64,000 nucleotides of DNA, from positions 1,754,581-1,818,580 of the forward strand of contig JBJCIZ010000239.1 of the NCBI GenBank assembly GCA_051294375.1, given 5' to 3'. The number at the start of each line of letters is the position of its first letter. Position 1 is the first letter of the stretch. The translations under genes and the position numbers were made by a program. The stretch is from Paraspadella gotoi (taxonomy: Eukaryota > Animalia > Chaetognatha). The notes beneath the pieces are model-generated. The model made no database searches, had not been told where the DNA came from, and saw nothing but the letters and a program-made list of their open reading frames with translations. Of the stretch, positions 13,101 through 47,713 are shown piece after piece.

Positions 13101-14314
13101 TTAATCCAGGGTCCACAGTAATTTAACCGCGGTGGTGATTCCGACGTCGGTAACGTTGAAATGAATGAGACCTTGGAAAAATAAATATAAGGAATACATA
13201 CGATAATTGATTAATTTTATACTTTAATTTTACATATATTTACCGACGAGGGTGATAATTGTAAAAAAGTAAAGGATGGCGATGCATAACTTTCCGAATC
13301 TCGGGTCCACTGGTTTGTTCATGATCAACTTTCGACACAAGTAATCTTTGAAAACGCCCTGAACGAAAAGAGCGGGATAAAAAAGTCAAACGATGATAAA
13401 ACTGAACAAAATAAAGCGATATATTGAATTATGAACAGAGTTGACCTACCTCGAGACCCCAGTGAAAATGCAGTACGACGATGAAACACAAGACGCAGTC
13501 GAGGAACCAATTCTGAGCCAAAAAAGCCACCGGGATTGCGATGACGGAGAGAACCGCGAAGACCCTTTCCACGGTCCAGTGCAACGACGGCAACATCCCA
13601 GCTTTGCCAATTCCCTCGAGTCTTGAGTCGGAGAAACGCAAAGAGAGAAAACGTTGGGTCACTCGAATTCCTTCAACAATCAACATCTTCCTCCAAGAGT
13701 CGACATCATTTGTAGCAGATTAATTTGTGGATTATCTCAATTGAGATTGAGTTCCTCAATCTCATTTGCATATTGTCGTATTTTGATTAAGCTTTGATAA
13801 ATATTTGTTCTATTGCCTTAAAGGTTTAATATTAATATTTTACATTAGTAACTGATCATGTGTTTTGTGGTTCAATTAATAGCTAAATAATTAATGATTT
13901 AATTATCATAATTGCTAGTTTACTACTTTAATCTTGGTTCCAGACTCACCTTGCTGTGGTGGAGAGAACTTTACGCAATTCCTCCGGGGGTTTAAATGTG
14001 ACGACGGGTTGGGATATGGTGGGTTGCTTCATCAGAGTGCACTAAAGAAAAATGGGGCCGGGTGGTGAAATGGATATGAAGCGGGAAATTAAGACTGGTG
14101 GGTAACGTTTCGTTCTTGAGGGAATATAATTTTTTTTATACTTGACGAGATAGAGAGATTAAGCAAACCGAAATTAAAAATAAATTATAATATAACGCCC
14201 GATTTCCCCACAAATTTCACTGAGCGTCACAGATCAATTCTCATGACTCACCGACAACGCCCCGCCGAGACGGCAAAACCTCGTGGGCGCCATCAACAAT
14301 CGCGATAAAGCCAT
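13101..14314 (-). CDS. SDHD: Succinate dehydrogenase cytochrome b small subunit
   Basis: Mitochondrial-type presequence MALSRLLMAPTRFCRL; SLHWTVERVFAV...LHFHWGLE..DY; GLIHFNVTDVGITTAVKLLW. Confidence 0.85.
13711..13791 (+). repeat. Dispersed ~80-bp hairpin repeat, copy 2 (SDHD intron)
   Basis: Contains a perfect 10-bp stem tgagattgag-ttc-ctcaatctca followed by atttgcat. Confidence 0.85.
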
Positions 14315-15914: not shown

Positions 15915-19690
<3,776 letters not shown>

Positions 19691-19816: not shown

Positions 19817-22625
19817 TCAATCTCTTTTTGGCGAATCGACAGTCGGTTCGTTTTTTTCATTGAGCAAAATGTCATTTCGATAAGACTTGATGATGAATCT
19901 GATGATGTAACAGTTGGTGAGAAAAAAAGCGATGCTGGCCAACAGAATGTAAACAAAGGTCGATTTGCCGCGGAATTCGAGCAAGTAGGCGGACAACAAC
20001 CATGCGCATTGATTGCCTAGGGTTAACTATATTTGTTAAAGGCCCTGATTACGAATATTAATTTAACACAAAAACTCACCTGACCAAAGAAAAGTGAGCA
20101 AAGTGGCTTTGGATCGTTTGAGATTCAAGTAAGGAATCAAAAGCGGTAGGAGACTTAAATACCAGATGAAATACTGTAATAATTGGCATAAAGGGAGGAA
20201 AAAGATAATATTGTAAGGAAAAATTATAAGTTATAATCAAAAATATAAGTTACATATTGCAGTACTATAGACTTCCGTGTCAAGCGAGTTTCAGATAATT
20301 TATTTCTCCCGTCAAAAAAATATTAATCCCTCTTCTTAATAAGCATGAGAATTTACTCAGAGGGTATCTTTTCTTAAAATTATCATTTATCATCAGATAA
20401 ATAAGACCATCTTTAATTTCCCCGGATTACAAATTACAATTCTAGGAAAAAAGTATATCACATTTTAGTCATAAGGTCATTGTCTTTTATGTCACTTTAT
20501 GTCGTTATATGTAACCTGTGTTTTTATTATTTTTGAAATAAAAAAAATTTAAAAAAAATCACATTTTTAGTAGAGGATATCTACCTGAAAACTTATTTGA
20601 TTTTAAAAGAATCAGAATGTTTTCGAATCTACATTGAATTTCCTTTCAGTAGCTTCCTTCCATTTTTTTGTAGGTCAGATCGTTTAGAAGTTACAGGCAA
20701 AAAAAGATCGCTACTTCAAATGAAAAATGACGAAAAAAATTATCTTTAATTTTCTACCATTTTTGGTATTTAGTTATTTGTTTTTATTTCAAATAGAGTC
20801 AATAATTGTTATATATTTTTTTAATTTAGCAATGCTATAGGCATTGCACCATTTTTTGTTAAAAAAAGTACCATTATAGCTCTCAGAAAAGAGGGAAAAA
20901 CGCGCAACATCAATATTGTGGCTGAAAAGAATTGCATTAAAGATGTAGAAAAACATTTCAATGAGAGCATGCTCAGACGAATACAGGCAGTAATCGATAC
21001 TGAAGGAGGACATATCAAATATTGAGAATATTTTACCCATGTTTTGTATATTTTTTATTGAATAAATAAACTTTTCAACAATAACGTGATACTTTTTTCC
21101 TAGATAGCATTTTATTTTTAAATAAAAGCTTTCGGCGTGATCGATTTGATTCTAATCGTTTTTCTTTTCCTTCGGGTTTTTTTGTTTTTTTTTAAGAAAA
21201 AAAAAAGCTTGCTTACTTGAGAAGTCACGACCTTGTTGAACGTGACAAAGACGGCCGTGTTAACGAAGAACACGAGTTCCAAGTGTCGATGATAATCCAG
21301 CGAGATCTTCAACAACAGGAGACATTGAGGAAGAAACGCCAACAAAGACAACGCGCCGGAAAGAGCGTTCTCGTCGGTGAGATAAATCATGAGGTAGTAG
21401 AGACTGAAGTTGTGCCGGATATCTTTGCGACTAACGTAATGAAGTCGCGTTATATAATCCACGTATATATTGTATAATCTTATCCCCTCGTTTCCTTACC
21501 CGACGTGATACAAATACGTTTGCGACAAAAACTCGTGCCCGTACAAAACGTAACAAGTCCCCGTCGCGACGAGGAAAACCGACGCCGAGACGACGACGAA
21601 CGCGAGTTGCGATTTGTTCGGCGCGAAAATCGTTCGCCAGATTTTGTTCTCTTCGTTCCGTTTCCCGATTCGATCGAGGCCCAGATTGATGTAGAGCGGG
21701 AGGGCGTAAATTATCGGGTAGATTTTCGAATGAACGGCCAACCCGTAGAAAACGGCGGAGAGGAATACTCGGTCTAGGGAATGGACCAAAACGAGAAAAC
21801 GAAGCAGGAACTTCGTTTCTAAAATCTTATGTAGTTTCTCTCTGTTTTTTTCCCCTTTGTTTTCCCCTCAACGAACCTTTCTTTCTAAAATAGAGAACGG
21901 CGAGTACGAGGGAGGCTAGGATGGCTTCGGCGTTGCCCCTCGTAGACACGGTGAAGCAGACCGGATTGAAGAGCCACAGAATCGCGCTCAGCAACGACGA
22001 GGATTCCGACGCGCCGTTAGTACGAGAGATGCGGTAGAGTAGATACCCTAATTAACGGTGGATACTCCAAGATATACCGACGAAGTTCTAAGCGTTCAAC
22101 TACCAACGCTACTCCATACATAAGACGATGGGTAATTGGCTATTGGCTCATCCCCCAAATGAATACGACCCCAAGACCTTTTCCTCTACCTGTGACAACG
22201 TCGAAAACGCTAAACACTATCTTGCCCCAAATGGGCGACAGAAAGATGTTGGGCAGTAAAACGAAAGCCAAAAGGGGCGTGTATCTGTAGGTGGGGCTTT
22301 GGTAGGGCGATTTTCCCTCGGACATGAAGGTCGCCGCTTCGGTGAAGACTTGATAATCGATATCTGGATTTCATTATGATAATCTTTATAGTTTATTTCA
22401 CAAAGTTTCGATTAAGTTTTCACAACTGTCTACCTTTGCCATAAATTATGCTTTCTGACTAATCTCCTACGTAGTTATCGCATTCAAAGTAAAGTAAAGG
22501 TTACAGACTCACGCAGACTCACCAGTGTATTTGACTGCATGACGAGCATCGTGATAACAGCCGTAACCAATCATCAACGCGCGCAATAAGATCGACAAAA
22601 TTGACAATTTAACGACGCGATGCAT
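19817..22625 (-). CDS. PIGM: GPI mannosyltransferase I
   Basis: VKYTDIDYQVFTEAA...SPYQSPTYRYTPLLAF...WGKIVF; WLFNPVCFTVSTRGNAEA; YGLAVHSKIYPIIY; RKDIRHNFSLYY; FVTFNKVVTSQYFIWY; AYLLEFRG. Confidence 0.95.
20437..21107 (+). mobile_element. Non-autonomous Tc1/mariner derivative (copy 1) in a PIGM intron
   Basis: Imperfect TIRs ctaggaaaaaagtatatcac...gtgatacttttttcctagatag; retains the Tc1 transposase C-terminus SMLRRIQAVIDTEGGHIKY-stop (~20967-21025); homologous to 57674-58146. Confidence 0.85.
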
Positions 22626-22859: not shown

Positions 22860-24579
22860 TTAATGAGGTTCGGTAAATATGATCTCGGGGATTTGTCCGT
22901 GTTCCACGTTCGTCCCGTTGGATCCGTCCATTGAATTGAGGAAAGTAAAGGTGACGGTGTCCGCTTCGCATCGATCCTTACCGTCCATTCCTTTGAAGAG
23001 AGGGAAAGGGAAGAGATAAAAATAAATTGAATTCTTGTTAGTAAATACAATGAAATATATAAATATTGTTGAGGAAACTAAATCATTATTAAACATTACT
23101 AATCAAAAGCCGAACCAAAAGATATGAAAAATAATTTAAACTCTACAATATGCAAATGAGATTGAAAAACTATCTCATTAGAAATAGACAAGGAAAACTC
23201 AACGTTCGATTCTTAAAAAGTTTTTATGCCTCATATATGTCTTATATAATATATATGCCTTATCCATCACTTCCAGGCTTTTCGGTCGAAATCAAAGAGT
23301 AGATCATCCACTATTCAATGATCAATCGTTACCTTTACGAAAATAAAAACCTTTTTTAAAAAAAAGTCATCTTTATTCATCGACTCATCCTTCATCTTTA
23401 GTTTCCCTTCTCCAACATCTTCGGTTTCCCTGCTTCCGGAGTGAGAGAAAGTAATTCCCAATTCACAAAAATCATTCATCCATTCCTTCTCACGACTAGG
23501 AGCGACACGAGACTTTTTCAGTGTCTTCACGACCCGGATTCTTCCTTCACAATTCACATGAGGTCATTCCATCCATTCGAGTCGCACATCTCACGGAAGG
23601 GAAGCTTCACCGATCCGCCCATTCACCGTAATAAGACTGAGCGCCGTTGAGAATGACGCAGGCCGAGTAGAGGACGTCGGCGTTGATCTCGACGGGATTG
23701 TCGAACTTGACTCGGTAGGTGGGTTCGTCCTCGGGGCAGTGGGCCGTGATGCGTTGGTGAGTCTCGGCGATCACGTTGCCCTGGTACATGAGCTGGGCGG
23801 TGACGACGTGACAGGCGCAGCCTTGGGCCCAGCCGTAGAGGCCAAAGCCGACGATGGCCACTTTGCGAGAGGCCTTGAAGGCGATGGAGTGGAGGCCTGG
23901 GGAGAGGTAAAAAAGGGGAAGTGGTGGAGTGGGTTGAGAGAGAGAAGGTGAGTATTCGATTTTGTCCCCGGGGATGTTTCGGGATTCCTCACAGGATCCG
24001 AGAAACCGTAAAAAGATCGATCGAATTTTAACTCCGTAAAAAGTTTAAAAACTAAAAAAAAATCTGTAAAAATTTTTATTTCTCTCTCACTCTCTCTCTC
24101 TCTCTCAGAACCAGAGGCTCCTCTCCCCCCCTCAATAACAATAAAAATGACTTCGCATTTCGCACTCGGGGAAAAAGTCAGTGAAACATGACACTGTATT
24201 TTTGTTTTGCCAGGCTCCAGCAGCATTTTGAAAAATAATAAAAAAAAGCAATAAAGCAATTACATCTACTGTCGGGGTTTGGGACCTCGACTGTATTTTT
24301 CAACGGCGACGACGGGAAATTGGATTCTCGCGGAGATTAGATTAAACCCTTCGCGTTGTTCCATTTCGTCGTCGTTGTCAAATAAACAACAGTCAGCGAG
24401 CCGTTGCTGCTGCTTCCCCCTTTTTTTCGTCTATCATGTGGTATTAGGTCACGGGGCACTTCGGGATTCAGCTCGACCCTCTCGATCTCAAGATGTGAGA
24501 GATCGAAGTCATGACTTTCCATTTCCTCGACTCATGTTTTTTTCGAGGATCCTGCGCGGAAAAAAAAACACACGTAACA

Positions 24580-24620
<41 letters not shown>

Positions 24621-27600
24621 CGGCGAAAAAGGTCGGAACGGCTTCTCCGGCAAAGTCGGAGACCTCCTCAAATTCTCGATCGAAAAACATCAAAAAAGTT
24701 TCTCCTCCCGACGAGTCCAACCCACATGAATGAGCGGAAAAAAATCGTTCCTCTCTCTCTCTCTCTCTCGTTCTCTAACTCAGTCTCTAACTCTCTCTCG
24801 CGAGTATTTGTTCCTATTTCGACGTCATAAAAGAAAAATACTAAAATTCTATAAGGCGCAATAAATTAAAGCGATATTTACCGATCTTTGGGTCTGCAAG
24901 AAACGAAAACAATCTCGGGGATTCGATCGCGATTTTCCATTTTCCATTTTCGATCTTTTTTCTTTCTTAAATTCTACAGTTTCTTTGTTCTCACTACTTT
25001 TTTTTTTCATCGCATGACGAAGGGGGAACCGAGACGGGCGGCGTGGGTTTTCTTCCGTCGGGGTTAAACGCAACTCTTTGGTCGGTTGGTCGGTCGGCTT
25101 TTTTTTTAATATTATTTTATTTAAAAAAAAAATGAAATGTTTTAAAACAATTTTAAAATTGATAAAAAAGTTGAAATTAATATTATAATAAAGTGTCCAA
25201 GCATTAAACTAGAACTATAGCTACAACATTAAATTATTATTACCACTCCATCTGTTACCCAAAGAACCGCGACCAAAGGACATATCCTGTTTTTTTAAGA
25301 GGAGCAGCGTGGCCTTTGAAAAAAAAAAAAAAATTCAGCTCGGCTCCGCTCACACGATCCTCTAAGAGGAATCATCAGAGATTTTAACTAAAGAAAAACC
25401 CCGAGGATGATAACTCAAGTTTTGCTCATCGTCTCAACGCTGTTTTCGGCGGGGATCAATGCAAGTAAGTTAAGCGCATCCACGTCCTGGGATTAGGATT
25501 GCTCCGTTTGTTTAAAATAATGGTTTTGGTAGAAGAATCCATTCGACTGAGAACCAAGAAGAGTAAGAGCACTGGATGGAACAATAATCGCATTTTCGAT
25601 TTCCACATTGCACTATATTTCCCAATCCAAAACGTTTCATTAGTTATAACAGTCCTCTTGAAAAAGCAAACTCATTATTTAACATTTGTTATGCATAATC
25701 AAATAGATTCTCATCCGCAAAACGCGGAGGCCGGTATTACGTCACCTCGAAATGAAGACACACCTTAACTTACTTCCTTACTTCACTTCCCCAATACCAG
25801 AAATTTTCGACCTGGAACTCAAGACTTGCGACAAGAGCGGCTCCGGTTCAAACGCCTACGTCGACGTTCGCCTCACGGGAACGCTCGCCGACTGCGAACG
25901 CAAGAAGATCAACCAGCTCTCCCTCTACAGGAATAAAAAATCTTCATACGCGATTTCCTGCGCCGATGACGTGGGATTCGTGACCGCGTTGCAACTGCGC
26001 ATCGACAGAAGCGACCAACCTTGCTTCGTCCGCGTCCGATTATTGGATCCCGTCGACAAAGACGTTTGCTTCTTCAGCACAACGTTCGAGAAGGATTTTT
26101 GGATCAAGCAAAAGAATAAGTGGACGGAGAAGATTTCTCAAAGTAAAAGGAGGGAATTTCGAGTGGAACCGTTTTGAGGTCGTTGCTAAGGTTTTCGTTT
26201 TGGACCCGCAGGTTGGGAAGACAGCGAAGAGTCGGTCAAGTTCGGAGGTCCAGTCGGTCATTTCTCAACGACGCACGACTTTAGACGTTGCAAGGTAAAT
26301 ACCCTTAACTAAGGGTACATGCCCTCTACCTATTTTAATAACGCTATACTGACGACTATTGAAAGACACTATATTATTTGTATAAAACCAACAACACGAG
26401 AAATACTAAATATTTACACAGTACGACGCCGTATCTTTTCCTCCCAGATACAATGCGCGTCGACGGCGCCGTCGAAGGGTTGGCGATGGAACCGGATGAA
26501 CGGAAAATGCGAATGCCTCAATCGCATCGAGACTCGTTTCTACGAATCCGTGGACAACTTCATTTCCGGCGCCATCGACAGATGCGCCGACGCCACCTTT
26601 CCGCGTTTTCTCAATTCCTTGAGCCCAGTTTGCGACGGTGAGAGGGATAAGTGGGGGGAGGGTTTGGGGTGATTCATTTTAAATAATTTATTCTTTATTG
26701 TATTACTTTAACTGCCCAAAACATAACGAAAAGAAAGCTGATAGGAAACGGCAGTTTTAACGCAATCCATCTCTTCCACAGAAAACCGATCGAAAAAATT
26801 TAATGCATTTTGTAGTCACCCATTTTGAGTCAAATTAAAATATGTATACTTCAAGAACCCTCTCACCAAAGAAAACTTCGACCGAACTCCTGAGAGATAG
26901 TACAGTGAAATAAATCCTCTCCCTCCCTCAGCCATGAAAAGCGCCGAACGAACCTACGAAAACGGGACGACCTGCCGCATCAAGTGCGTTCGGTTTGAGG
27001 AGAACGACCCCGAGGGCGTCGTCGTCTGCCGCTCCACGGCCGTATGGCGATCCGAGCCAAACTGGGACGTCTTGGCGCCGCCAAACTGCGGACTTCCGGT
27101 CAGTTGGATCGCCGGGCTAACCGTCGGCTCCGCGGTAGGCGTGGGCCTCGTCTGTTTCGTCGTTTATCTAACGTGGAAACGATACGAGTTTAAGAAGCAG
27201 CAGCCGCCGCACACGAAGGGAGGCGGCGGCGACGCGGGAGGAAAGAAAAAGATTCTCAAACACCGAACCAGCTACGTGTTGGCGCTAAAGGACAAGCGCG
27301 ACGACTACGTCGACTTCGGCGTCGTACCAAAAGTCAGTTTCTCCAGAGCGATCTACGAAGCGTCCAACTCCGACTCGGACAGCATCGAGTCGGGTCTGCA
27401 GTTTCGTCTGCAACAGCAGCAGCCGGGGCCTTCTCGCAAGATATCCTTCGGTAGACCAAGGGGAGATCTCAGACGCGGCGGGGACGGAGGAGAAGACGCC
27501 GAGAGATTCCTACCGCCGCTGGGAAACGACGGAGAATCCGTGGGAAGCAAACGGAGGAAACTGTCGACGATCTTCATTTCGCCGCATGCCTTTCAGCAAA

Positions 27601-30600
27601 CGCAGCCAAAAGACTTGCTCCGGCGACTGAGTCGAGAGCTTCCATCTACTCTAGTCTTCACGGACGACGGCGCCGTCGCGAGATCGCCGCCGCAAAGAAC
27701 GCCGCGAGAACGGCGATTGACGCCGGCTCAGGGTTCGCTCGTGGATTCTACCGACATCTTCGAAGCCAACCAGCGCACTTTCGCCGCCAAACCGGCCGCC
27801 TTTATCAAAAGCGAGCAGACGTTCGAGAGGGGTCAAAACGCCTTCAAGAAAGGCCCCAGCACCTTTGAGAGAGGGCAGAACGCCTTCAAAGTCGGGCCCG
27901 ACACTTTCGAGCAAAACCAAAAGACATTTCTCGACGGTCAAAACATGTTTCAAGAAGGGAGGGAAGTGTTCAAGACGAGCAACGACGCGTTCCAAGCTGG
28001 ACAGCGGCGTTTCGATCGCGGCAAGGAAGCCTTCGAGCAGGGACAGACCCGGTTTCAACGGACGCGCGGGTCGACGGATGCTTTGGGAGACAGCGACATC
28101 GGACTCAATGTCGGAGGGACGGCGAAGGCTAAAAAGAAGATTTCGGACGCGTCCTTCGCGAGCGTCAAAACTGTTGCTTGAATTTAAAAGTCTTTTTTAT
28201 AGCACATTTGGTTGTTACGTGTTGCATGACATTTTTTTGTAAAGAATGTAAAAATTGCCATATTACAAAATTTTTAACCTTCTCGCACGACTTCGTTGTG
28301 GATGAGACAGTGCAGAAAAAACAAAGTGAAAAAACTTTCTATTATTTAATAATGTCGCCGCTTAGCCGTTGCAAGTAAGATTTATGGGCCCTTCCATAAT
28401 TAAGCGTTTTAACTGAACTAGTTAAAAATGTGAAAAAAGCCTACAACGAAATACAGTATGACAAAAAGGTTTAGAATTTGATAAAAAATACGTTTAATAA
28501 TTACATTTATAAATAAGTAAGCCGTTTTGCCGTTGCTAGTAGGATTTAACGAATGTTCTGTGGTGGTATTTTCACACCACCTCACGTCCACGATCATTCA
28601 GCCAATACCATTGGCTCAGAGGGGGAACACACCATCCCAGGCGTTGTGTTCCATCCACAGTCCTAACGACTTCCGTCTGCGTTGGCAAAGCGAGACCGTC
28701 CTAGGGTAACAGCGCCAGTGACTGGATGCGTCACTGAGGGTCGGAAGCCCCCAAAGCCAGCAGTGAGATGCCCCATCCCAATGGGCATCACAGGCAACCC
28801 GGCGGTTGCCATAAGTGGTGGACGTGAGGTGGTGTGAATATATCACCCCCGTTCCATAATTAAGCCTCAATCGTCAAAAATGTAAAAAATTCAAAAATGC
28901 AACACGATACATACAATGCAATAAAGTAGAAAAACTTAGGATTTAATAATAGTAAGAAAAATAGGAGATTTCGGTCTCACCCTCAAACCACAACTCACCG
29001 TAAAACGTGCTGGAGACGTGAAGAAAGTAAGGAAATCTCCGGCAGCGACGCTCGGTGCCGACCTTGCGGCGCGGCTCGCAGATAAACTCGAGATTTCCCG
29101 GTTTGTCGTCGGCGGTGAAGTACTGGAACATCTTGACGCACTCCTCGGCCGTGAGAAGGCCCGACTTGGAGACCCGGTTGGAGAAGTCGGCCAAAGAGAT
29201 GGTCGGCACGCGGATCATGTGAAGGACGGGGCCCAGCATTTTCCGCTTCTGATCCGGGGTCGGTTCGAGGCCGCGGCGGAGGCATTCGGCGGCGGCCCAG
29301 CGGACGGACGCCTTTTTTTTGGAAGGGGGTGTTTGACGGTATTGACGAACGTTGTCATTAACATCGTCATTATTCCTCGTTACCTCGAATAACTTAATCT
29401 CTGGAATGGAAAGGGCGTCTCGTGACACGAGCGACTGGAGGGTGAGATGGTCGACCTCGAGGAAGCCTTCAGAGTTGAGGACCTCTTCCGTGTGGAGGTC
29501 GATGTCCCTCAGGCATTTCTCCGCCAGTTCCTCTTCGTCGTAGAGTTTGGACTAAAAATCGACATTTAAAATTAACAATCAGTAGATCAAAATTAACCAC
29601 ACAACTAAATATCAATCAGTTTTAAAGAAAGGCAAGGATTCCGAAGAAATTAAACGACGAAAAAGTCTATTTTAGAATATTGAATGAAGTTTTCAAAACT
29701 GCCATACCACGAAAATTATAAGCATTCTATTCAATCACAATGAAAGACAAGCACTTAAATGTCATTCAGTATTCACGTCTCTTCACCTGCATCAGAATGA
29801 CGCAGACGTTTTCCGGTTTGAGATTCTTCTCCAAATAATTGATGCACTCGTTGGCCAATGGGTTAACCATGTACTTTTTGGCGGCGTACAACGTCGGCAA
29901 AACGGATTCCGGCTCAAGATTGATTTCCTGTCGAAGTAACAAATAGAAACGAGATGTCGATCTTATTTTTCGTCGTGGATAGCTATTTTCAATGGGTCCG
30001 TCTGTTGTTTTAATTTTTACCATACTCCCAGAATAGGTTAACAAAATAAATGCAAACGAAATTTACTTTCGGATTATAATCCGAGATATTCGATTCACTG
30101 TGGAAATTTACTTATCTTAACCGCATCACAAAATCATTAATGGCGTAATTACTAATTAGGCTTACTATTTTACCTCGCTGTAAATGTAGCGAAGCATCGC
30201 CATAAAAGCCTCGGGATCCACGTCGGGCACCATGATTTCGTCGCCGTCTGGAGAAAGTGAGAAATAGTAGGAGACGATTTCAAACCAATTAAAATTTTCC
30301 AAAATTTTTTTTTTTTCATAAAAAGTTGATATAAAAATATTTCATTAAGTTGTCAAAAATCGGAAAAAACCTATATTTTAAGCTGAAAATTTATTTTGTC
30401 CATTCAATATAGTTTTTTAAATTTTTAACCCTACTTAATGAAAAAAAATTTAAAAATGATTTATATTTTTTTATAGACTTTTGACGAAAAATTCAAATTA
30501 AAATTTAAAAAATCCCATTTTGAAATTTTAGAAATATAGGGTTCTGCGAAAATTAAAAAACATAAAATTAATTTATTTAATATATTATGTTCACTGGTGG

Positions 30601-32031
30601 TACGTTGATCAATGATCATAAGTGGCTATTAGAATTTCGATACGTGACTTTCACTACGCTCCAATTGCTACACCAACACATTTTTTTTCTTTCTATGAAA
30701 TGGCAATACGAACAGAGAACATTTTCCATATCACATTAAAATTATATAAATAGTCAAATATCAAAGTGCACACCTCTTAACAACCAAAGACAAAAGAGTT
30801 ACTTTTGCTTACAATCGTGAACGAACAAGTCTAATAATACATAACTCGCGTAACAATCATTGCAAAAACAAAACTTTATATTATAACAGATTTTAAAAAA
30901 ATTTTGCTTAATAATTTAGTTTTAACTATTGATTTATTTATTACTCCAACTACTGCAATATGCAAATGAGAATAATCCAACCTTTGCTTCTCGACGCGAG
31001 TCCTCCGCAGAACATAGCGTAAAACACGGAGCTGGCGGTGACGAGGACGCACTTGTGCGCCGGGATCGTTCGCATGCCAGCAATGGGTGGCGCCGCGACG
31101 CCACCAGCAGCGACGGCTCCCTCCGGCGTTCCAACCACAAAGTGAACGTCGGCTAGGATCTCGTTGGCGCAGAGCGACGCCATGCGGTCCTTGAGCACGT
31201 GACCCACACCAACCTCCAGCTCGTTGTGAAGGTCGAACGGATTCACTCGCGCCGCGGCGGCGCCGGCGGCGTCCTGGTTCTCGCCGCGAGCGCCGGCGCC
31301 ATGCTGTTGGTGATGATGAAGCGAAAGATGAAGCGCTTGTTGATTTTGCGGAGGTAATTGCTGCGGCTGCTGAGCGTTGGAAACGAGTTGATTTTGTGAG
31401 GGTTGCTGTTGATTCTGAGCCTGGGGTTGGTCAGCGACGGCCACTGCGGCCGCGGCGGGAGGCTGCGACGGTATCGCCGGGCCTGACCGTGAGGATGAAT
31501 TATTGGCGGCCTCCGCAAAGGCTGGCAACTGCGCCGAAGAGTTTCGCGGCGTCGCGGAGTCGGATAAATCGTTTGGAGGAAAAGAGTTGGAAGCCGGGTT
31601 GACGAACTGTTGTTGCGGAGCAATGGAGGGCGCGGCGCGGTTGCTCCACTGAGAAGAACGCGATACGCCGGCGCTCAGCGGGTTAAGACGATCGCTTGCG
31701 GGCTGTTGAGGTTGCGGCGCTCGAACTTTGGCTTTGACGTCGCCGCTTCCGCCCATGGCGCCGCTTCCACCGACTGCTCCCCCAATGGCACCGCTGGCGC
31801 TGGCAGTTCCACCAACGGCGCCGCGAAGGGTGAACTTAGGAGGGAATCTCTCCAAACCGGAAGTAGAGAGAGAAGGCGCCGACGGAGCCGAAGTCGGGCT
31901 CAAAGGATGAACGTTAAATCCTGGTGGAAGGGGACCCGGTCCGGGAAGCTGGGCGGGAAACCAAGGATGGAAATTAAAGAGATCGGTGGTAAGGAAGAAA
32001 AGAGTAACGGGGTGACCGTCTAACTCACCAT
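22860..32031 (-). CDS. BTB-BACK-PHR protein (BTBD3/BTBD6 family) with a Q/P/S-rich N-terminus; 5-kb intron 23897-28980
   Basis: LKDRMASLCANEILADVHFVVG...IPAHKCVLVTASSVFYAMF; VPDVDPEAFMAMLRYIYS; TLYAAKKYMV; VRWAAAECLR...LHMIRVPT; PHR domain VGFGLYG...FDNPVEI...SNGTNVEHGQIPEIIF. Confidence 0.9.
25407..28181 (+). CDS. Nested antisense gene: type I membrane protein (signal peptide, PLAT/LH2-like domain, Cys-rich PAN-like and sushi-like modules, TM, long cytoplasmic tail)
   Basis: MITQVLLIVSTLFSAGINA followed by gtaagt; FDLELKTCDKSGSGSNAYVDVRLTG...DDVGFVTALQLRID (PLAT-like); YENGTTCRIKC...VVCRSTAVW (CCP-like); TM WIAGLTVGSAVGVGLVCFVVYLTWKR; 415-aa last-exon ORF. Domain names are by motif resemblance only. 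Confidence 0.75.
28406..28851 (+). mobile_element. Putative ribozyme-containing non-autonomous retroelement-like insertion with a 14-bp target-site duplication
   Basis: TTCCATAATTAAGC at 28392-28405 and 28852-28865; inverted repeat 28562-28591/28818-28847 (21 bp perfect); several internal hairpins. Confidence 0.65.
28677..28763 (+). ncRNA. Twister ribozyme, type P5 permutation
   Basis: P5 GUUGGC/GCCAGC; GA-CCG (T1) pairs with CGG in loop 4 (U-CGG-AAGC); U^AA at 28707/28708; GC (T2); P3 CAGUGAC/GUCACUG; P4 GGG/CCC. P2 (CAGC/GCGA) has two mismatches. Confidence 0.7.
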
Positions 32032-32859
32032 GGGTCCGGGAAGTATGTTGACCAAAGGCTGTATGTCCGGAGCTGAAGTTGGAAGCGAAAATCTGGGAAG
32101 AAAGTTGATAAATTTCAACCTCGTTTAGAATTTCTGATATATACTTATTACTTATATTTTTCGATTTGATACTCACAAGACTTGTCAAGAGAGACTTTGA
32201 ACGAGTAAGAGAGTAATTATCTCAAAAACAGCAAGAGCAGCGACAAGATATTGCAAAGAAAAAAATACAATAAAGAAGAATCAGTAGGACAAATCTAAAA
32301 TGAGGACGAATGATTGAAAAAAAAAAACAAAAAAACTTACAGAACACCAACTTATTTTTTACGAGTTAACATGAAAACTACAACAATATTGAAATCAGAT
32401 TAAAGTAAAATTAAAAATTCCTTTAACATTCCGACCCCATTCGCGCCCACCTGTGCAAGTGTTCTACATGATGAACTCCTCCCGAGGGACTCCTCCCTTC
32501 CGCGGGAGACAGCCCCTCGACTCCGGCGACTCTCCGACCCGGCGGTTCCGCCCCGAGCGCTTCGTCAACACCCTCATCCCCGCACTCGACGCGCAGCTCG
32601 TTGATAGCGTTCTGCAGATCCTCCTCCAACTCGGGATTCTCTTCCCGTCGCTCTTGGTCCGCGTTTCCTCTCTCAGAGTCTTTACTTCGATTAGGTCTCA
32701 TACGAACCATAGTTAAAAATTAGTCAATTAAATAGTATAGTACTTTCTGTATATGGAAAAAAAAAAAAGGTTGTCTATGACATTATGATTAACGAACACG
32801 GATCGACGAATGATTAGGCAAATCGTTTACAAAAAAGACATCATTATCATCGATATCAT

Positions 32860-35800
32860 TTTCGACAAAAGCTGCAGACGTTGAAGCCGCCGTTCAAAAC
32901 GTAGCCGACGAAGGCTTTGTACTGCAAACCGAGGCATTTGCTCATCGCTTCGAATTTGGCGAAAAACGAAGGATTCTCTTGCGACGTCTTAAGCCCGAAC
33001 GTCGTTCTCGCCTTCACGAGCTGAGAGAAGCGGATCTCTCATTTGTTTAATTTTTTTTTTAATCTAATTTTTTTAATTAATTGTGCAACCGACCAAGAAA
33101 ATATCCAACCAACCGACCAACCAAATGACCGACCTTTCTAAACGGCCTCTCGCTAAAATCGTTGTCTTCGATGTCGCCCATCATGACGAAGAGCATCTCG
33201 ACAATCTCTTTGCTGAAGCAAAAGACAATGGCCAACGATAACAACCGGTACAACGACAACAACAACAACGGGGCGACCTGAGATCCACTCCCGCAACTTG
33301 CTTGGCCACGTGATGGAAGACGTCCTGAGTGATTTTAACGCCGGCCATGTGGTAACTCTTGAAGGCGATCTTCATGAGGATGGGATAACTAAAGAAGACG
33401 TTGAGCTGGAGGAAGTCGTCGCGAGTGACTCCTTTGGCAAAAGCGAGGGGGGGTAAAGGGGGGGGGAGGTCGGCGAGGGGGGGAAGGGGGGCGAGGTCGG
33501 CGAGTGGGGTGAGGAGATGTGCGAGAAAGAATTCGAGAGTTACGTCAGATCTGACGCGAGTATAACAGGGGGTTATATTTAGAATAGACAATATACAAAT
33601 GACATTGAGGAACTCGATCTAATTTGAGATAATCCACGGATTAATCTGCTACACAAAGATCCCTACCAAAAAGATGTTTGGTTAGTCATTTGCCATAGCG
33701 AAGGAAAGATTTGAAAGGATACGGATGAAGCGTGAAAACGATTCGTACGGGAATATGTTTTCGAGGTCGACGAGTTCTTGTTGTAAAAATTTTTCATATT
33801 TCTCTTCATCTTCTTGATTCGGTTTAACGCGGAGGCGGAGCCGTGGTGGAACTTCGTCATGCTGCGACGAAAGAAAATAATTTGGTTTTTTTTATGGAGA
33901 AAGAAAAAGGAAAAGAATTGCGAAGACCTATCGAGAAAATCGAAACCCGGGATCGAGTCGTATTCGTCGGGCCTGACAAACAAAAAAAACACAATACGTT
34001 TTCAAAACACGCTATTGTTCGGGCAATGTCGAAAACCTCACATGTACGAGTCAAATTCCAAAGAATTGACTTCTGCTTTGAGCCGTCTCTGAAAAGTGAT
34101 GAAATCTTCCACCGCCATGCTTTGATCCAAATTGGGTCCGAAAAAAAACTTGGCCACGCGAGTTTTGGGGGCGTTCTGTCGGAAGACAACAAATAAATAG
34201 CTGCCCACCCGATTCTGATTAGACGTGAATGTAACCGAGTGAATGTTGAGAATGCTGCTGCCGTGATCCCGATGCTTCTTCCACATTTCCGTCTGACCCA
34301 ACATCACGCTTTCGATCAAGTGAAATTTGCGGGCGTCGATCAACCCGTTGCCGTCGTCGTCGAAAAGACTGGAGGCGAAAACAACAACGACTCTCTCTTG
34401 GGACAGCGAGCAAGAGACCTCGTTATATAGGACCTTCACAATCTCGTTATAACCGATTTCTCACTTGAACGCCATTCGAAAGTGACGAACGGGATGCGTG
34501 AGAACCATCACCAGGAAAATGTAATCGGCGTAGTTGATGAGGCCGTCGGGACTGATCATGAAAAACGTTGAATCCGGCATCAAGTCGCAGACAATCTGTT
34601 CAGGTTTAGATAAATGTTAATAATAAGAATAATAAAACTAAGGGAGTTAATGGGGGCTCTAATAACGAGTACATTGAAGACTCGAAGTTGAAAGTCGATG
34701 AGAAAGAGACAATACAGACGACCAAACTTGTTTCAAATAAAACAAACATACTACCAAAGGACCCAACCGTGTCTGATTCAGCATCGAAAGTTCGGAAACT
34801 GTCCAGCCCCAGCCCGTCCGGCTGGATGCTGTTGGGAGAGATGGATCTGACAAAATCCTCCGGATTCATGAAGGTTCGAGTTTTGACGCCCGAGTGATGA
34901 CGGATGTCGTGATGCGAGTGATGTCCGTGATGGCCGGACTGAGGGTTTGTGTGTGTGGGATGGTCGTAGGTGTGGGGGGTAGATAGAGATGATTATAAGC
35001 TTTAGTGAAGATGATTAAACGAAAAAGAAAAGGAAAATTTTTTTAGAAAAGTCAACGGTATTTACAAAAGACCTTGTGATGCTTGTCGTCCTCCACTGTC
35101 TGAAGCGTCGCAAAATAACGGAAGATCTGTTACCCATGAGGGGGGGGGGTGAAGTCGCAGGAAAAATCATGTTGGAATCAGTTATCGTGACTCCTTCACT
35201 AACACAACCTTGTCCGGCGTCGAAAACATCCGCAACCGATTTTCATAGGCGACGATGTGTCTCTCTCGAAATCCTTTTCGCGCTCTCAGGATGTGCAGTG
35301 AGAGTTCGTCCGGCGTGGCGTAGGGATCGTCGGAACCGGTGAAAATCTTAAAGAGTTATAGTTAACGAGAATTCGTCGAACGATCGATTGTGATCCGTTA
35401 ATCGCAAACCTTTCGATAATTGTGATTCTTCAGGTTATCGTCCGTGACGCATCGTTCCTCAGAATGGCTCACGTACTCTCCGTCGTCCTTTATTCTCACG
35501 GTGCAATGCATGCCTCCTGAGAGATCGATCACCCCCCAACCGTTCGTCAACTCTCCCTTCAAATCTGAGATTTCTTAGAAAACCCGACCCTTTCTGGTGA
35601 GGATGGCGCATTTGGCCGAATGCCTGACGATCGGCGGGAAATCGCCGGGCGGTTCGTCGGCGTCCTTTCCACCGCCGAAGGGCGTCGATTCTTCGTCGGC
35701 GTCGGACACTTGGGCGTCGTCCTTATGAGCGGCGTCGTGGCCGCGGACGCCGTAGTGGTCGCCGCAGATCGTCCTCAGCATGACGATGAGGGCTCTGACG

Positions 35801-35960
35801 AAGAAGGCGACGATGCCGTCGCTTCGATCGGGATCAGAGTCGCCGGAATCGCCGGAATCGCCGGAGACGATCTTGTCCTCGATCTCTTCGTCTTTCCGGT
35901 CCTCGATGGACAGGGCAATTCTTTTGCGTTTCCGGTCCAAGAGCTAACATCGGCGAATGG
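32860..35960 (-). CDS. MICU1: MICU1-like mitochondrial calcium uptake protein (exon 2 onward; exon 1 is at 47474-47713); 3' end uncertain and may include 32423-32700
   Basis: [76 protein letters not shown]...FITFQRRL; SYHMAGVKI...VAKQVAGVDL. Confidence 0.85.
33578..33653 (-). repeat. Dispersed ~80-bp hairpin repeat, copy 3 (MICU1 intron; duplicated at ~40139-40215)
   Basis: Reverse complement reads tgtagcagattaatccgtggattatctcaaattagatcgagttcctcaatgtcatttgtatattgtc. Confidence 0.8.
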
Positions 35961-36121
35961 GAGATGGAGATACGGTGGAGTTGAGGTAAAGTGAGAGGAG
36001 GCAGGAAAAGAGCGAATGAAGATCGGAAGGCAGAGCGAGAAGAGTTTAATAATAAAAGAAAAAGAGCGGAGTGGAAAACAGAGACCGATTGGGCGGCGGA
36101 AAGAAATGTTTTTAAGAAGAC

Positions 36122-36463
36122 AGCGAACCGAAAATCGAGCGAGAGAAGCGAACGAAAATGTGGGAGCGAGAGAACAACGAAGAAAATCGAGGGAGAAACG
36201 AACGAAAATCGAGGGAGAAACGAACGAAAATACGAGCGAGAAGCGAACGAAAATTCGAGCGAGAGCGAAGCGAAAATCGATGGAGAAACGAACGAAAATC
36301 GAGCGAGAAGCGAACGAAAATCGAGCGAGAAGCGAATGAAAATCGCAGGAGCAGACGACACGAAAATCGAGCGAGAAGCGAACGAAAATCGGGCGAGAAG
36401 CGAACGAAAACCGAGCGAGAAGTGAACGAAAATCGAGGGAGAAACGAACGAAAATCGAGGGAG
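36122..36463. repeat. 22-bp minisatellite (R-CGAACGAAAATCGAG-S-GAGAA)n in MICU1 intron 1, ending at a 25-N gap
   Basis: Tandem units with no spacers; also at ~37368-37674 (inverted) and ~47126-47420. Confidence 0.9.
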
Positions 36464-36488: not shown

Positions 36489-39400
36489 TATTCTCCAAGG
36501 TAAAGAACGACTCACTCGGAGTCGCTGACGATTCCGACTCTGACGAAGCCGTGGACGAGGAAGAGGAAGAGGAGCACAAGGAGAATCTGGCCTGGGCTCT
36601 GCAAATGATGGAACTGAAAGACGCGGAGTTGTACAACGAGGACGAAGACGTCGGCCCTCCCTGCGGCCTCGATAGAAAGGGCCGGCCTAAAAAGGCTGGG
36701 CCCGTTGTCAAGCCTCTCATGGAATTGTAGCCCGGTCGAGAATCAGCACGGGGTATGAGATATTGTTCGCGCCTTTCCCCTTTCCCCTTCTCATTTTTCA
36801 AAACATCGATTGACGGTGGAAACTCTTATTTTTCGATGTTTTGAGATAAAAAAAAAACAAAACAAAACGAAACTTCAATGTAAAAAATCCTTTAAAAAAA
36901 AAGGTGTCGATTTTAATCTCAGTTTTTCTTTTAATTTGTATGAACGCAGTTTTATTTTCCCCCAGTTTCAAAAAAAACGATAATTTTTTATTTTTGATCT
37001 TCTTAACTTTTTAACCCCGAATCCTCTCCTTTCCTTCAGATCGTTGAATTTCCTTAAAATAAAGACAGACTATGAACTCTCCCAACACCCCCCGCCACCT
37101 TCTCCGATGGCGCCGTCGTTTCGGCGCCGCTTTGACGCCGGCGCTGGTCGGCACCGGCGTCGCATTGGTCCGCGGCGCCCGTGTTCGCGCCGACGACTCA
37201 TCGGACCCCGATAGAGAGGAGGATCGATCGAGGGCTTTGGTTTTGGCCGGCGTCGCGGCGTCGCGAGAGGCCTTTCGCTTTTTGATGGCCGACCACGGGG
37301 ATAAAAAGGGCGTGAGTGTCCCAGTTTATCTCGTCTTCTTATTACGCTTCTCCGCAGATTTCCTGTTCGCTTCTCCTCGATTTTCGTTCGTTTCTCCCTC
37401 GATTTTCGTTCACTTCTCGCTCGGTTTTCGTTCGCTTCTCGCCCGATTTTCGTTCGCTTCTCGCTCGATTTTCGTTCGTTTCTCCCTCGATTTTCATTCG
37501 CTTCTCGCTCGATTTTCGTTCGCTTCTCGCTCGATTTTCGTTCGTTTCTCCATCGATTTTCGTTCGCTTCTCGCTCGATTTTCGTTCGCTTCTCGCTCTA
37601 TTTTCGTTCGTTTCTCCTCGTTTTCGTTCGTTTCTCCCTCGATTTTCGTTCGTTCTCCCTCGATTTTCGTTCGCGTCTTAAAAACATTTCTTTCCGCCGC
37701 CCAATCGGTCTCTGTTTTCCACTCCGCTCTTTTTCTTTTATTATTAAACTCTTCTCGCTCTGCCTTCCGATCTTCATTCGCTCTTTTCCTGCCTCCTCTC
37801 ACTTTACCTCAACTCCACCGTATCTCCATCTCCCATTCGCCGATGTTAGCTCTTGGACCGGAAACGCAAAAAGAATTGCCCTGTCCATCGAGGACCGGAA
37901 AGACGAAGAGATCGAGGACAAGATCGTCTCCGGCGATTCCGGCGATTCCGGCGACTCTGATCCCGATCGAAGCGACGGCATCGTCGCCTTCTTCGTCAGA
38001 GCCCTCATCGTCATGCTGAGGACGATCTGCGGCGACCACTACGGCGTCCGCGGCCACGACGCCGCTCATAAGGACGACGCCCAAGTGTCCGACGCCGACG
38101 AAGAATCGACGCCCTTCGGCGGTGGAAAGGACGCCGACGAACCGCCCGGCGATTTCCCGCCGATCGTCAGGCATTCGGCCAAATGCGCCATCCTCACCAG
38201 AAAGGGTCGGGTTTTCTAAGAAATCTCAGATTTGAAGGGAGAGTTGACGAACGGTTGGGGGGTGATCGATCTCTCAGGAGGCATGCATTGCACCGTGAGA
38301 ATAAAGGACGACGGAGAGTACGTGAGCCATTCTGAGGAACGATGCGTCACGGACGATAACCTGAAGAATCACAATTATCGAAAGGTTGCGATTAACGGAT
38401 CACAATCGATCGTTCGACGAATTCTCGTTAACTATAACTCTTTAAGATTTTCACCGGGTTCCGACGATCCCTACGCCACGCCGGACGAACTCTCACTGCA
38501 CATCCTGAGAGCGCGAAAAGGATTTCGAGAGAGACACATCGTCGCCTATGAAAATCGGTTGCGGATGTTTTCGACGCCGGACAAGGTTGTGTTAGTGAAG
38601 AGTCACGATAACTGATTCCAACATGATTTTTCCTGCGACTTCACCCCCCCCCTCATGGGTAACAGATCTTCCGTTATTTTGCGACGCTTCAGACAGTGGA
38701 GGACGACAAGCATCACAAGGTCTTTTGTAAATACCGTTGACTTTTCTAAAAAAATTTTCCTTTTCTTTTTCGTTTAATCATCTTCACTAAAGCTTATAAT
38801 CATCTCTATCTACCCCCCACACCTACGACCATCCCACACACACAAACCCTCAGTCCGGCCATCACGGACATCACTCGCATCACGACATCCGTCATCACTC
38901 GGGCGTCAAAACTCGAACCTTCATGAATCCGGAGGATTTTGTCAGATCCATCTCTCCCAACAGCATCCAGCCGGACGGGCTGGGGCTGGACAGTTTCCGA
39001 ACTTTCGATGCTGAATCAGACACGGTTGGGTCCTTTGGTAGTATGTTTGTTTTATTTGAAACAAGTTTGGTCGTCTGTATTGTCTCTTTCTCATCGACTT
39101 TCAACTTCGAGTCTTCAATGTACTCGTTATTAGAGCCCCCATTAACTCCTTAGTTTTATTATTCTTATTATTAACATTTATCTAAACCTGAACAGATTGT
39201 CTGCGACTTGATGCCGGATTCAACGTTTTTCATGATCAGTCCGACGGCCTCATCAACTACGCCGATTACATTTTCCTGGTGATGGTTCTCACGCATCCCG
39301 TTCGTCACTTTCGAATGGCGTTCAAGTGAGAAATCGGTTATAACGAGATTGTGAAGGTCCTATATAACGAGGTCTCTTGCTCGCTGTCCCAAGAGAGAGT

Positions 39401-42400: not shown

Positions 42401-43034
42401 ATCAACTCGTTTCCAACGCTCAGCAGCCGCAGCAATTACCTCCGCAAAATCAACAAGCGCTTCATCTTTCGCTTCATCATCACAACAGCATGGCGCCGGC
42501 GCTCGCGGCGGAGAACCAGGACGCCGCCGGCGCCGCCGCGGCGCGAGTGAATCCGTTCGACCTTCACAAACGAGCTGGAGGTTGGTGTGGGTCCACGTGC
42601 TCAAGGACCGCATGGCGTCGCTCTGCGCCAACGAGATCCTAGCCGACGTTCACTTTGTGGTCGGAACGCCGGAGGGAGCCGTCGCTGCTGGTGGCGTCGC
42701 GGCGCCACCCATTGCTGGCATGCGAACGATCCCGGCGCACGAAGTGCGTCCTCGTCACCGCCAGCTCCGTGTTTTACGCTATGTTCTGCGGAGGACTCGC
42801 GTCGAGAAGCAAAGGTTGGATTATTCTCATTTGCATATTGCAAGTAGTTGGAGTAATAAATAAATCAATAGTTAAAACTAAATTATTAAGCAAAATTTTT
42901 TTATAAATCTGTTATAATATAAAGTTTTGTTTTTGCAATGATTGTTACGCGAGTTATGTTATTATTAGACTTGTTCGTTCACGATTGTAAGCAAAAGTAA
43001 CTCTTTTGTCTTTGGTTGTTAAGAGGTGTGCACT
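36489..43034 (+). repeat. Inverted duplication (ERI1 last exon, complete MICU1-like gene from ATG 37072, BTBD 5' exons); likely artefact
   Basis: Reverse complement of 30765-36463 plus 47390-48296; differs mostly by single-base indels; starts at the 25-N gap. Confidence 0.9.
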
Positions 43035-47600: not shown

Positions 47601-47713
47601 ACACGGGCGCCGCGGACCAATGCGACGCCGGTGCCGACCAGCGCCGGCGTCAAAGCGGCGCCGAAACGACGGCGCCATCGGAGAAGGTGGCGGGGGGTGT
47701 TGGGAGAGTTCAT
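44667..47713 (-). CDS. MICU1: MICU1-like 5' half including exon 1 (MNSPNTPRHLLRWRRRF..., presequence-like); redundant with 33653-36463
   Basis: Same exons as the 33-36 kb copy; exon 1 ends ...HGDKKG followed by gtgagt. Confidence 0.75.

What the first reader, a model, noticed from the sequence alone, without database searches (positions are those of the whole stretch)
28677..28763. Type-P5 twister self-cleaving ribozyme with a palindromic P1
Seen on the + strand, in P5-permuted order: GUUGGC (28681-86, P5a), AAA, GCGA (P2b), GA, CCG (T1, 28696-98), U-CCUAGG-G, U^AA (28707-09), CAGC (P2a), GC (T2), P3 hairpin CAGUGAC/GUCACUG, A, GGG (P4), U-CGG-AAGC (L4), CCC, CAAA, GCCAGC (P5b, 28756-61). Established: U^AA, GC, U-NNN-AAGC and GA-NNN with a T1 pseudoknot form the twister core, and here T1 is correctly complementary (CGG/CCG). 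Two oddities: P1 is only 2-3 bp but is a self-complementary palindrome (CCUAGG), and P2 has C.A and A.G mismatches. Inference: two copies could form an intermolecular P1 and cleave as a dimer, as minimal hammerheads with palindromic loops do, while the P2 mismatches may mark an attenuated or decayed copy. An upstream CUUCCG (28670-75) can pair with L4 CGGAAG and could act as an off-switch.
Basis: partly seen in the sequence, partly recalled or inferred. Interest (0 to 1): 0.9.

Follow-up and report, generated by a model that had tools for sequence, protein, structure and literature searches.

The report
Twister ribozyme in high-copy animal repeat
This stretch has every core letter and pairing of a twister self-cutting RNA and sits inside a short non-coding repeat scattered in very many copies through an animal genome, which is likely spread by a Penelope-type retrotransposon enzyme; cutting, alone or as a pair, is predicted but untested.

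Summary
All listed parts are at the stated places. A P5-order twister descriptor hits once in the window and 0 times in 150 shuffles. Rfam misses it because P1 is tiny and a P3 hairpin is inserted. New here: the motif lies in a ~256-nt interspersed repeat (28559-28814) about 16,000-33,000 times deeper than its flanks in three DNA runs (rough). At three places the window copy differs from 98.6-100% of family depth. The family letter repairs the P2 A.G mismatch and the P5 wobble and breaks the last pair of the 'off-switch'. So the off-switch is not a family feature and the decay is this copy's own. The palindromic P1 and the C.A pair are family traits. A sharp 3' end, an optional A/C-rich extension, depth falling toward the 5' end and an inverted piece suggest a Penelope-dependent element with a twister in place of a hammerhead; no reverse transcriptase partner was seen. 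Dimer cleavage is plausible but not required by published data. The scan noted similar twisters in Naiad elements and repeats of other genomes before; I found none in print.

The parts
28559..28814 (+). One copy of a short, non-coding, very high-copy interspersed repeat that carries the twister
   Evidence: depth jumps from ~90 to ~1.4 million in X1; loose ends at 28559 (41/30/27 contigs in X1/X5/X7) and at 28813 and 28814 (82+94, 67+69, 58+68 contigs) with unrelated flanks
28681..28761 (+). Twister ribozyme fold in type-P5 order with a P3 hairpin and a minimal P1
   Evidence: compared with Rfam Twister-P5 consensus
28681..28686 (+). P5 5' strand (pairs with 28756-61)
   Evidence: 6 of 6 pairs; the family letter at 28760 turns the wobble into U-A
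28690..28693 (+). P2 strand (pairs with 28710-13)
   Evidence: 2 of 4 pairs in this copy, 3 of 4 with the family letter at 28711; A.C next to L1 is family-wide
28694..28698 (+). Conserved GA (G28694 is the predicted general base) and T1 strand CCG
   Evidence: Same place as GA-NNN in the Rfam P5 consensus; T1 3 of 3 with 28742-44; role of G from PMC11662667 section 32
28699..28706 (+). 8-nt self-complementary P1 segment: 2-bp hairpin as monomer, 8-bp duplex as dimer
   Evidence: self duplex -11.0 kcal/mol, 2-bp hairpin +2.7; the segment is 14-21 nt in 10 distinct phage P5-type twisters; no variant at 5% or more
28707..28709 (+). U^AA, predicted cleavage between 28707 and 28708
   Evidence: Sequence; position as in Rfam consensus and PMC8501958 section 17; not tested
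28714..28736 (+). T2 GC (28714-15) and P3 hairpin (28716-36)
   Evidence: T2 2 of 2, P3 7 of 7; the two family variants in this part (28723, 28727) fall in the loop
28738..28751 (+). P4 and L4 (U-CGG-AA-GC)
   Evidence: P4 3 of 3; L4 as in Rfam consensus
28767..28810 (+). Two 7-bp hairpins (28767-89, 28793-810) just before the family's 3' end
   Evidence: Predicted; no variant at 5% or more in 28762-28811
28816..28850 (-). Inverted copy of the repeat's first ~35 nt, joined to the 3' end of this copy; not seen as a common family end
   Evidence: 28562-91 / 28818-47, 93%; 30 of 36 letters; no loose-end pile at 28850 among the rows shown (811 rows not shown)
28555..28558 (.). Left copy of a 4-bp direct repeat (GTTC), candidate target-site duplication
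   Evidence: removing 28559-28854 gives the same 10-nt spacing between two anchors as the older tandem unit at 28379-28405
28851..28854 (.). Right copy of the 4-bp direct repeat
23897..28997 (-). Host intron (ends approximate by a base or two) of a BTB-BACK-PHR gene; the twister is antisense to this gene and in sense with a nested + strand gene that stops at 28181
   Evidence: Spliced contig in X9 continues at 23866-95; Pfam BTB, BACK, PHR, PLAT; splice signals

Best explanation
This is a twister ribozyme fold in type-P5 order inside a short, protein-less, very high-copy repeat, which is likely copied into new sites by the reverse transcriptase and endonuclease of a Penelope-like element, with the twister predicted to play the part that the hammerhead plays in other Penelope-type ends and retrozymes. 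Shown: the fold's letters and pairs, the repeat, its ends, and that this copy carries private changes. Inferred: (1) the + strand is the RNA; (2) reverse transcription starts at or just past 28813/28814, about 107 nt downstream of the predicted cut, with an optional A/C-rich extension as the Penelope 'tail'; (3) the template is uncut or re-ligated RNA, because DNA depth does not drop upstream of the cut site; (4) the ribozyme would cut slowly as a monomer and faster when two copies of a tandem or paired transcript join their palindromes, releasing unit-length RNA; (5) the inverted arm of this copy would come from a fold-back of the RNA or cDNA 3' end onto 28589-93 and copying to the 5' end, before insertion with a 4-bp duplication.
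For: Core complete and rare by chance. Family letters restore helices at 28711 and 28760. Leaving out the 3 sites private to this copy, 0 of 74 core positions against 10 of 138 other positions vary at 5% or more (Fisher p 0.016; sites are not independent, and the 3' hairpins are equally invariant). T1 is CCG/CGG, a combination absent from the 10 distinct phage P5-type twisters (GTG/CAC, GTA/TAC, GTC/GAC, CGG/CCG) yet complementary. Two adjacent 3' ends and an optional extension after 28820 (19 contigs in X1, 11 in X7) match the two start sites and tail reported for a Penelope-like element, where the start lies in an AC-rich stem-loop 111-118 nt into the ORF, the hammerhead cut at 26, targets are AT-rich and uncut RNA is the dominant template (PMC11167929, passages). 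Depth falls toward the 5' end (1.0 at 28667, 0.43 at 28606, 0.05 at 28592) and is not lower upstream of the cut than downstream (1.0 vs 0.86 and 0.72). Variants at 28640 and 28667 are 18% and 24% in X1 but 4-7% in X5 and X7, consistent with recent lineage-specific spread. [quoted passage not shown] Metazoan hammerheads with short palindromic helix III work as dimers (PMC4209133, passages).
Against: No cleavage data. No reverse transcriptase or GIY-YIG domain among the 13 and 35 ORFs scanned (only part of the window's ORFs), and no genome is held, so no partner element was seen. Rfam and my phage model give no significant score. No within-family covariation in T1, P2 or P5 could be shown; those columns are invariant at the 5% level. 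The fall of depth to the left may come from subfamilies with a different 5' sequence rather than truncation. AT-rich loose ends may only mirror the genome's non-coding DNA. The inverted arm copies the 5' end, whereas the typical Penelope inversion is a 5'-truncated copy next to the 5' end. No tandem junction appeared among the joints shown (42 not shown). Nested-only folding prefers other structures to P2, P4 and P1 (pair probabilities 0.00-0.13), though it cannot count the two pseudoknots.
Confidence: 0.55

Rival explanations
1. The repeat is the solo end (pseudo-LTR or 3' remnant) of an autonomous Naiad-type Penelope element rather than a separate non-autonomous family; most copies are 5'-truncated insertions of that element. 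The ribozyme works as in the best explanation.
For: Depth falls leftward; optional extension; frequent 5' truncation in Naiads; unchecked earlier notes of this scan place P5-like twisters in Naiad terminal repeats.
Against: A fixed 5' end at 28559 with unrelated flanks in 41, 30 and 27 contigs; no conserved upstream continuation among the loose ends shown; no ORF seen.
Confidence: 0.2
2. The repeat is a SINE-like or LINE/RTE-dependent element, or mainly a tandem satellite with dispersed monomers like schistosome hammerhead repeats, and the twister cuts as a monomer to trim transcripts.
For: [quoted passage not shown]
Against: The cut site is in the middle, not at the 5' end, and copies are not trimmed there; no B box; no poly(A) or simple-repeat tail in this copy; no tandem joint among those shown.
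Confidence: 0.13
3. The repeat moves as DNA (a MITE with ~35-bp terminal inverted repeats and a 4-bp duplication, or a Helitron-type element ending in a hairpin) and carries the twister as a passenger with no role in movement.
For: This locus has inverted ends and a 4-bp direct repeat; the family ends 3-4 nt after a GC-rich hairpin.
Against: Most copies end at 28813/28814 without the right arm; a passenger would not be expected to keep the core invariant while the P3 loop and 5' part vary.
Confidence: 0.08
4. The twister resemblance is chance and the stretch has no ribozyme activity or ancestry.
For: No significant covariance-model score; fold z -0.85.
Confidence: 0.04

Closest known systems
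Type-P5 twister ribozyme (Rfam RF02684, clan CL00120)
   Same: Order P2b-GA-T1-P1-UAA-P2a-GC-P4-L4; AAA before P2b; L4 U-NNN-AAGC; both pseudoknots paired.
   Different: P1 segment 8 nt and palindromic against 14-21 nt hairpins in 10 phage examples; a 21-nt P3 hairpin where the model has about 4 nt; A.C where the consensus has A-U at the base of P2; below the gathering score; in an animal repeat.
Hammerheads of Penelope-like elements and metazoan non-LTR retrozymes (PMC4209133, PMC7229834, bioRxiv 10.64898/2026.07.22.740005)
   Same: Small non-coding unit of retrozyme size (150-450 bp), ribozyme inside the unit, a short helix capped by a palindrome that could pair between copies, many solo copies.
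   Different: Ribozyme class is twister; tandem arrays, circular RNA and a partner element not shown here; GC content of this unit is higher than the under-45-50% given for retrozymes (62% over the core).
Naiad clade of Penelope-like elements (PMC8557442)
   Same: No hammerhead (none found by my scan of the window), very high copy number in an invertebrate-like genome, tail-like extension, inverted piece.
   Different: No ORF or EN-RT seen; target here is not a microsatellite; orientation of the inverted piece is not the typical one.
Twister variants of Schistosoma mansoni Perere-3 non-LTR elements (PMC8501958)
   Same: Twister with a weak P1 in an animal retroelement.
   Different: Those are type-P1 at the element's 5' end with P1 completed by target DNA; here the order is P5, the cut is internal and copies keep the upstream part.

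Membership tests
Twister ribozyme, type P5 (RF02684) | Conserved core letters: U^AA, GA, GC, L4 U-NNN-AAGC | tested here: met
   none varies at 5% or more in the family
Twister ribozyme, type P5 (RF02684) | Two pseudoknots T1 (3 bp) and T2 (2 bp) | tested here: met
   3 of 3 and 2 of 2 Watson-Crick
Twister ribozyme, type P5 (RF02684) | P5-permuted order with closing P5, P2 and P4 helices | tested here: met
   P5 6 of 6, P4 3 of 3; P2 2 of 4 in this copy, 3 of 4 in the family
Twister ribozyme, type P5 (RF02684) | Stable P1 hairpin as in the Rfam model (8 bp) | tested here: not met
   2 bp plus 4-nt loop, +2.7 kcal/mol; 14-21 nt segment in phage examples
Twister ribozyme, type P5 (RF02684) | Score at or above the Rfam gathering threshold | tested here: not met
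   No gathering hit; only twister-P1, 18 bits. So it works like a P5 twister but is not filed as a member of the Rfam family
Twister ribozyme, type P5 (RF02684) | Covariation among homologues | tested here: inconclusive
   Helix columns invariant at 5% within the family; rarer variants and other species not seen; T1 differs from phage forms yet pairs
Twister ribozyme, type P5 (RF02684) | Site-specific self-cleavage | not testable with these tools
   Only contigs were available; they cannot show RNA ends
Penelope-like element or its non-autonomous derivative | Partner with telomerase-like RT and GIY-YIG endonuclease sharing the end sequence | tested here: inconclusive
   None in the 13 + 35 ORFs scanned; genome not held
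Penelope-like element or its non-autonomous derivative | Optional 30-40 nt tail at a fixed 3' end | tested here: inconclusive
   Shared extension after 28820 in 19 and 11 contigs, median loose length 20 and 43, only 30 letters shown
Penelope-like element or its non-autonomous derivative | 5' truncation and tandem or inverted insertions | tested here: inconclusive
   Depth falls leftward; an inverted piece is present but copies the 5' end
Metazoan non-LTR retrozyme | Type I hammerhead in each unit | tested here: not met
   No minimal type I hammerhead in the window by a recalled descriptor; no Rfam hammerhead hit
Metazoan non-LTR retrozyme | Tandem arrays and circular monomer RNA | tested here: inconclusive
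   Single copy here; no end-to-start joint among the joints shown, 42 not shown; circles not testable
tRNA-derived SINE | Pol III A and B boxes near the 5' end | tested here: not met
   A-box-like at +53, no B box (consensus recalled)
MITE (TIR DNA transposon) | Terminal inverted repeats in most copies | tested here: not met
   Commonest right end is 28813/28814, before the inverted arm

The most novel reading that the evidence does not exclude
A twister-based retrozyme: a protein-less Penelope-dependent element, among the most abundant ribozyme repeats in its genome and still spreading, whose twister has traded its P1 hairpin for a palindrome and cuts only as a strand-swapped dimer. It would be the first natural dimer-dependent twister and would show that two unrelated ribozyme classes reached the same copy-sensing switch in Penelope-type elements, leaving lone RNAs intact for reverse transcription.
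Probability: 0.25. Interest if true: 0.85.

Novelty: new variant of a known kind. Interest (0 to 1): 0.58.

Why it matters
Twisters have no settled biological role in animals beyond the 5' ends of some non-LTR elements, and Naiad-type Penelope elements are reported to lack ribozymes. A P5-order twister that standard models miss, present in a repeat of very high copy number, means such ribozymes are under-counted. It also gives an 81-nt construct for a direct test of whether a twister can be gated by dimer formation and whether ribozyme cleavage matters for Penelope-type movement. The class is known, cleavage is untested and this scan has noted similar cases in other genomes, so the score is moderate.

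Tried and rejected
Whole genome: not held. Rare-variant table for the repeat and a test in two other organisms of the same study: not obtained, so within-family covariation and spread to relatives stay open. Run search: no RNA holder listed. Run X9 is only guessed to be RNA; it holds spliced host contigs and also low unspliced cover. Its depth relative to X5 rises from 0.06 upstream of the predicted cut to 0.10-0.16 downstream, but contigs cannot show level or ends, so I do not use this. Pattern for relatives of this exact element: 0 in viral contigs; 19 in metagenome contigs, of which 16 were re-found by my script and 0 of 16 had L4, so chance (3 not examined there, none passed the descriptor). 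L020 had no Rfam match and was dropped; 5 duplicate phage loci were dropped before alignment A1 (L141, L142, L143, L148, L149), and only 5 of the 10 sequences in A1 were checked against Rfam. Off-switch: rejected. Treating 28562-28847 as a normal TIR element or a 290-nt rod-like RNA (z -7.8): rejected as a family trait, the stem comes from this copy's inverted arm. Host taxon: one exon of the LTA4 hydrolase gene gave no close named relative (named hits 54% identity or less, mostly invertebrates), so I say only 'animal, invertebrate-like'. Bacterial promoter/terminator scan: 0 sites, not meaningful here. Literature: 'twister' + 'Naiad' 0 papers; 'twister-P5' + 'repeat' 1 unrelated; 'twister ribozyme' + 'dimer' + 'palindrom' 11, none on a natural dimeric twister by title or abstract start. 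Roth et al. 2014 was not fetched and Lunse et al. 2017 is not held. Supplements of PMC11662667 and PMC8557442 were not opened and could list similar sequences; bioRxiv supplements are closed.

Full report
Observation. Pair by pair: P5 6 of 6, P3 7 of 7, P4 3 of 3, T1 3 of 3, T2 2 of 2, P2 2 of 4, P1 2 pairs around a 4-nt loop. Rfam has no gathering hit in the window. Locally it gives a partial twister-P1 match of 18 bits (E 0.98 and 0.11), which does not appear at E<=1 over the whole window. A descriptor for P5 order found this site once, against 1 hit without and 0 hits with the P5 helix in 150 shuffles of the window; it was written after seeing the site. The same descriptor passed 5 of 140 pattern-selected loci, and all 5 are Rfam Twister-P5 above threshold. 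That call also shows why the model misses this site: it is 58 nt long, expects an 8-bp P1 and has no P3 hairpin. A model from 10 phage P5-type twisters puts this site first of 16 in the window with exact ends, but only at E 0.23.

Context. The window is animal DNA (RIM-binding protein, leukotriene A4 hydrolase, astacin, BTB-BACK-PHR) with no close named relative. Laying four runs on 28000-29500 showed that 28559-28814 is a very high-copy repeat: 8,743, 2,263, 2,128 and 375 contigs were laid, and summed depth over the core is about 16,000, 31,000 and 33,000 times the flanks in the three DNA runs. The tool warns that summed depth is not a copy number, so I claim only the order of magnitude. Loose ends pile up at 28813 and 28814 (82 and 94 contigs in X1) and at 28559 (41), with unrelated flanks, so copies are dispersed. 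This copy sits in a 5.1-kb intron of a minus-strand gene and 378 nt after the stop of a nested plus-strand gene.

What the family says about the oddities. At 28675, 28711 and 28760 the window letter is under 1.5% of depth in 4 of 4 runs. The family letter at 28711 turns the P2 A.G mismatch into a C-G pair, and that at 28760 turns the P5 wobble into a Watson-Crick pair. The letter at 28675 breaks the sixth pair of the proposed off-switch, whose pairing probability is 0.000 in both versions. The C.A pair beside L1, where the Rfam consensus has A-U, and the 8-nt palindrome show no variant at 5% or more, so they belong to the family. Leaving out those three private sites, 0 of 74 core positions vary against 10 of 138 others (p 0.016), with two of the ten in the P3 loop; the sites are linked by subfamily history and the 3' hairpins are just as invariant, so this is modest support. 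Covariation inside the family was not shown.

Monomer or dimer. The P1 segment is 8 nt against 14-21 nt in 10 distinct phage examples. As a hairpin it costs 2.7 kcal/mol; as a self duplex it gains 11.0; the strand-swapped dimer is 15.4 kcal/mol below two monomers counting nested helices only, though unconstrained cofolding finds other structures lower still. This parallels metazoan hammerheads with a 1-2 bp helix III and palindromic loop (PMC4209133, passages) and axolotl retrozymes, which cut far better as dimers (PMC7229834, passages). Against a need for it: in 1,948 scored type-P1 twisters, flaws in P1 and P2 did not lower cleavage (PMC11662667, sections 31, 32, 33, 35 read); cleavage without P1 is possible but inefficient (PMC8501958, section 17); and a centred 6-nt palindrome arises 1 time in 64 by chance. 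I put a real role for the dimer at about 0.3.

How it moves (inferred). Two adjacent 3' ends, an optional shared A/C-rich extension after 28820, and depth that falls toward the 5' end fit a Penelope-type reaction. In the anole element, reverse transcription starts at two sites in an AC-rich stem-loop about 85-92 nt past the hammerhead cut, makes the optional tail, prefers AT-rich DNA and uses uncut RNA (PMC11167929, passages). Here the end lies about 107 nt past the predicted cut, and depth upstream of the cut is not lower than downstream, so copies come from uncut or re-joined RNA. [quoted passage not shown] Solo retrozyme monomers are common and tied to Penelope-like elements (bioRxiv 10.64898/2026.07.22.740005, first fifth and passages). 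No partner ORF was seen and no genome is held, so this link is a best guess. I also read passages of PMC6765202, PMC7761336, PMC13725137 and PMC10085705; they place twisters only at the 5' end of RTE-type elements, in bacteria and in RNA viruses.

This insertion. The copy is followed by an inverted piece of its own first 35 nt. The whole, 28559-28850, is flanked by a 4-bp direct repeat, and removing it restores the spacing of an older tandem unit upstream. The right arm keeps the family letter at the mirror of 28592 where the left has changed. The five letters 28816-20 could be read both as the start of the shared extension and as the complement of the family's 28589-93, which suggests a fold-back and copy to the RNA's 5' end. 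That would make 28559 the transcript start. This orientation is not the typical Penelope inversion, and the arm is not a common family end, so the striking 290-nt rod fold (z -7.8) is special to this copy.

Prior notes and print. By sequence and by place the scan had nothing on this element or genome. By words it holds unchecked notes on P5-like twisters in Naiad terminal repeats, one with palindromes replacing the first helix, and in a high-copy repeat of other genomes. They sharpened my Penelope/Naiad reading and are not counted as evidence. Searches for twister with Naiad, with Penelope-like or pseudo-LTR, with SINE, and with dimer or palindrome showed no paper on a twister in Penelope-type elements or a natural dimeric twister, judged from listings and the passages named; subscription papers and unopened supplements may hold one.

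Verdict. A real twister-type fold (about 0.95) that fails the Rfam P5 family on P1 and score, in a very high-copy repeat. Penelope dependence in some form about 0.75 (non-autonomous 0.55, solo end of an autonomous element 0.2). New variant of a known kind; interest 0.58.

Noticed in passing
window 28225-28558 and 28851-28960: Older degenerate tandem units of about 165-180 bp surround the insertion; the upstream unit served as a proxy for the empty site.
   Followed up: partly
window 25707-28181 (+): A gene with a PLAT domain and a likely membrane-spanning segment is nested on the opposite strand inside the 5.1-kb intron of a BTB-BACK-PHR gene. The first AATAAA after its stop is at 28920, beyond the twister, so the twister could lie in its 3' UTR.
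   Followed up: partly
window 30765-36460 / 37375-43034 and 44021-48944: Large, 97-99% identical inverted duplications with 22-bp tandem arrays at their inner ends, next to short N gaps at 36464-88 and 49147-71; could be a foldback element or an assembly artefact.
   Followed up: no
window 20558-21070 / 57693-58117, and 17940-18008 / 58188-58255: A dispersed AT-rich repeat family, about 80-87% alike.
   Followed up: no
window 5614-5710, 13711-13791, 33563-33653, 40140-40212: An ~80-bp dispersed repeat with internal palindromic character, MITE-like.
   Followed up: no
window 28596, 28607, 28629, 28723 and 28640, 28667: Four variants share about 80-100 thousand depth in X1, suggesting a subfamily; two others are several times commoner in X1 than in X5/X7, suggesting a sample-specific expansion.
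   Followed up: partly
L056, L087, L099, L108, L125, L144-L147, L150: Ten distinct type-P5-order twisters in phage contigs, five confirmed by Rfam; L144 and L147 have a longer P3 segment.
   Followed up: partly
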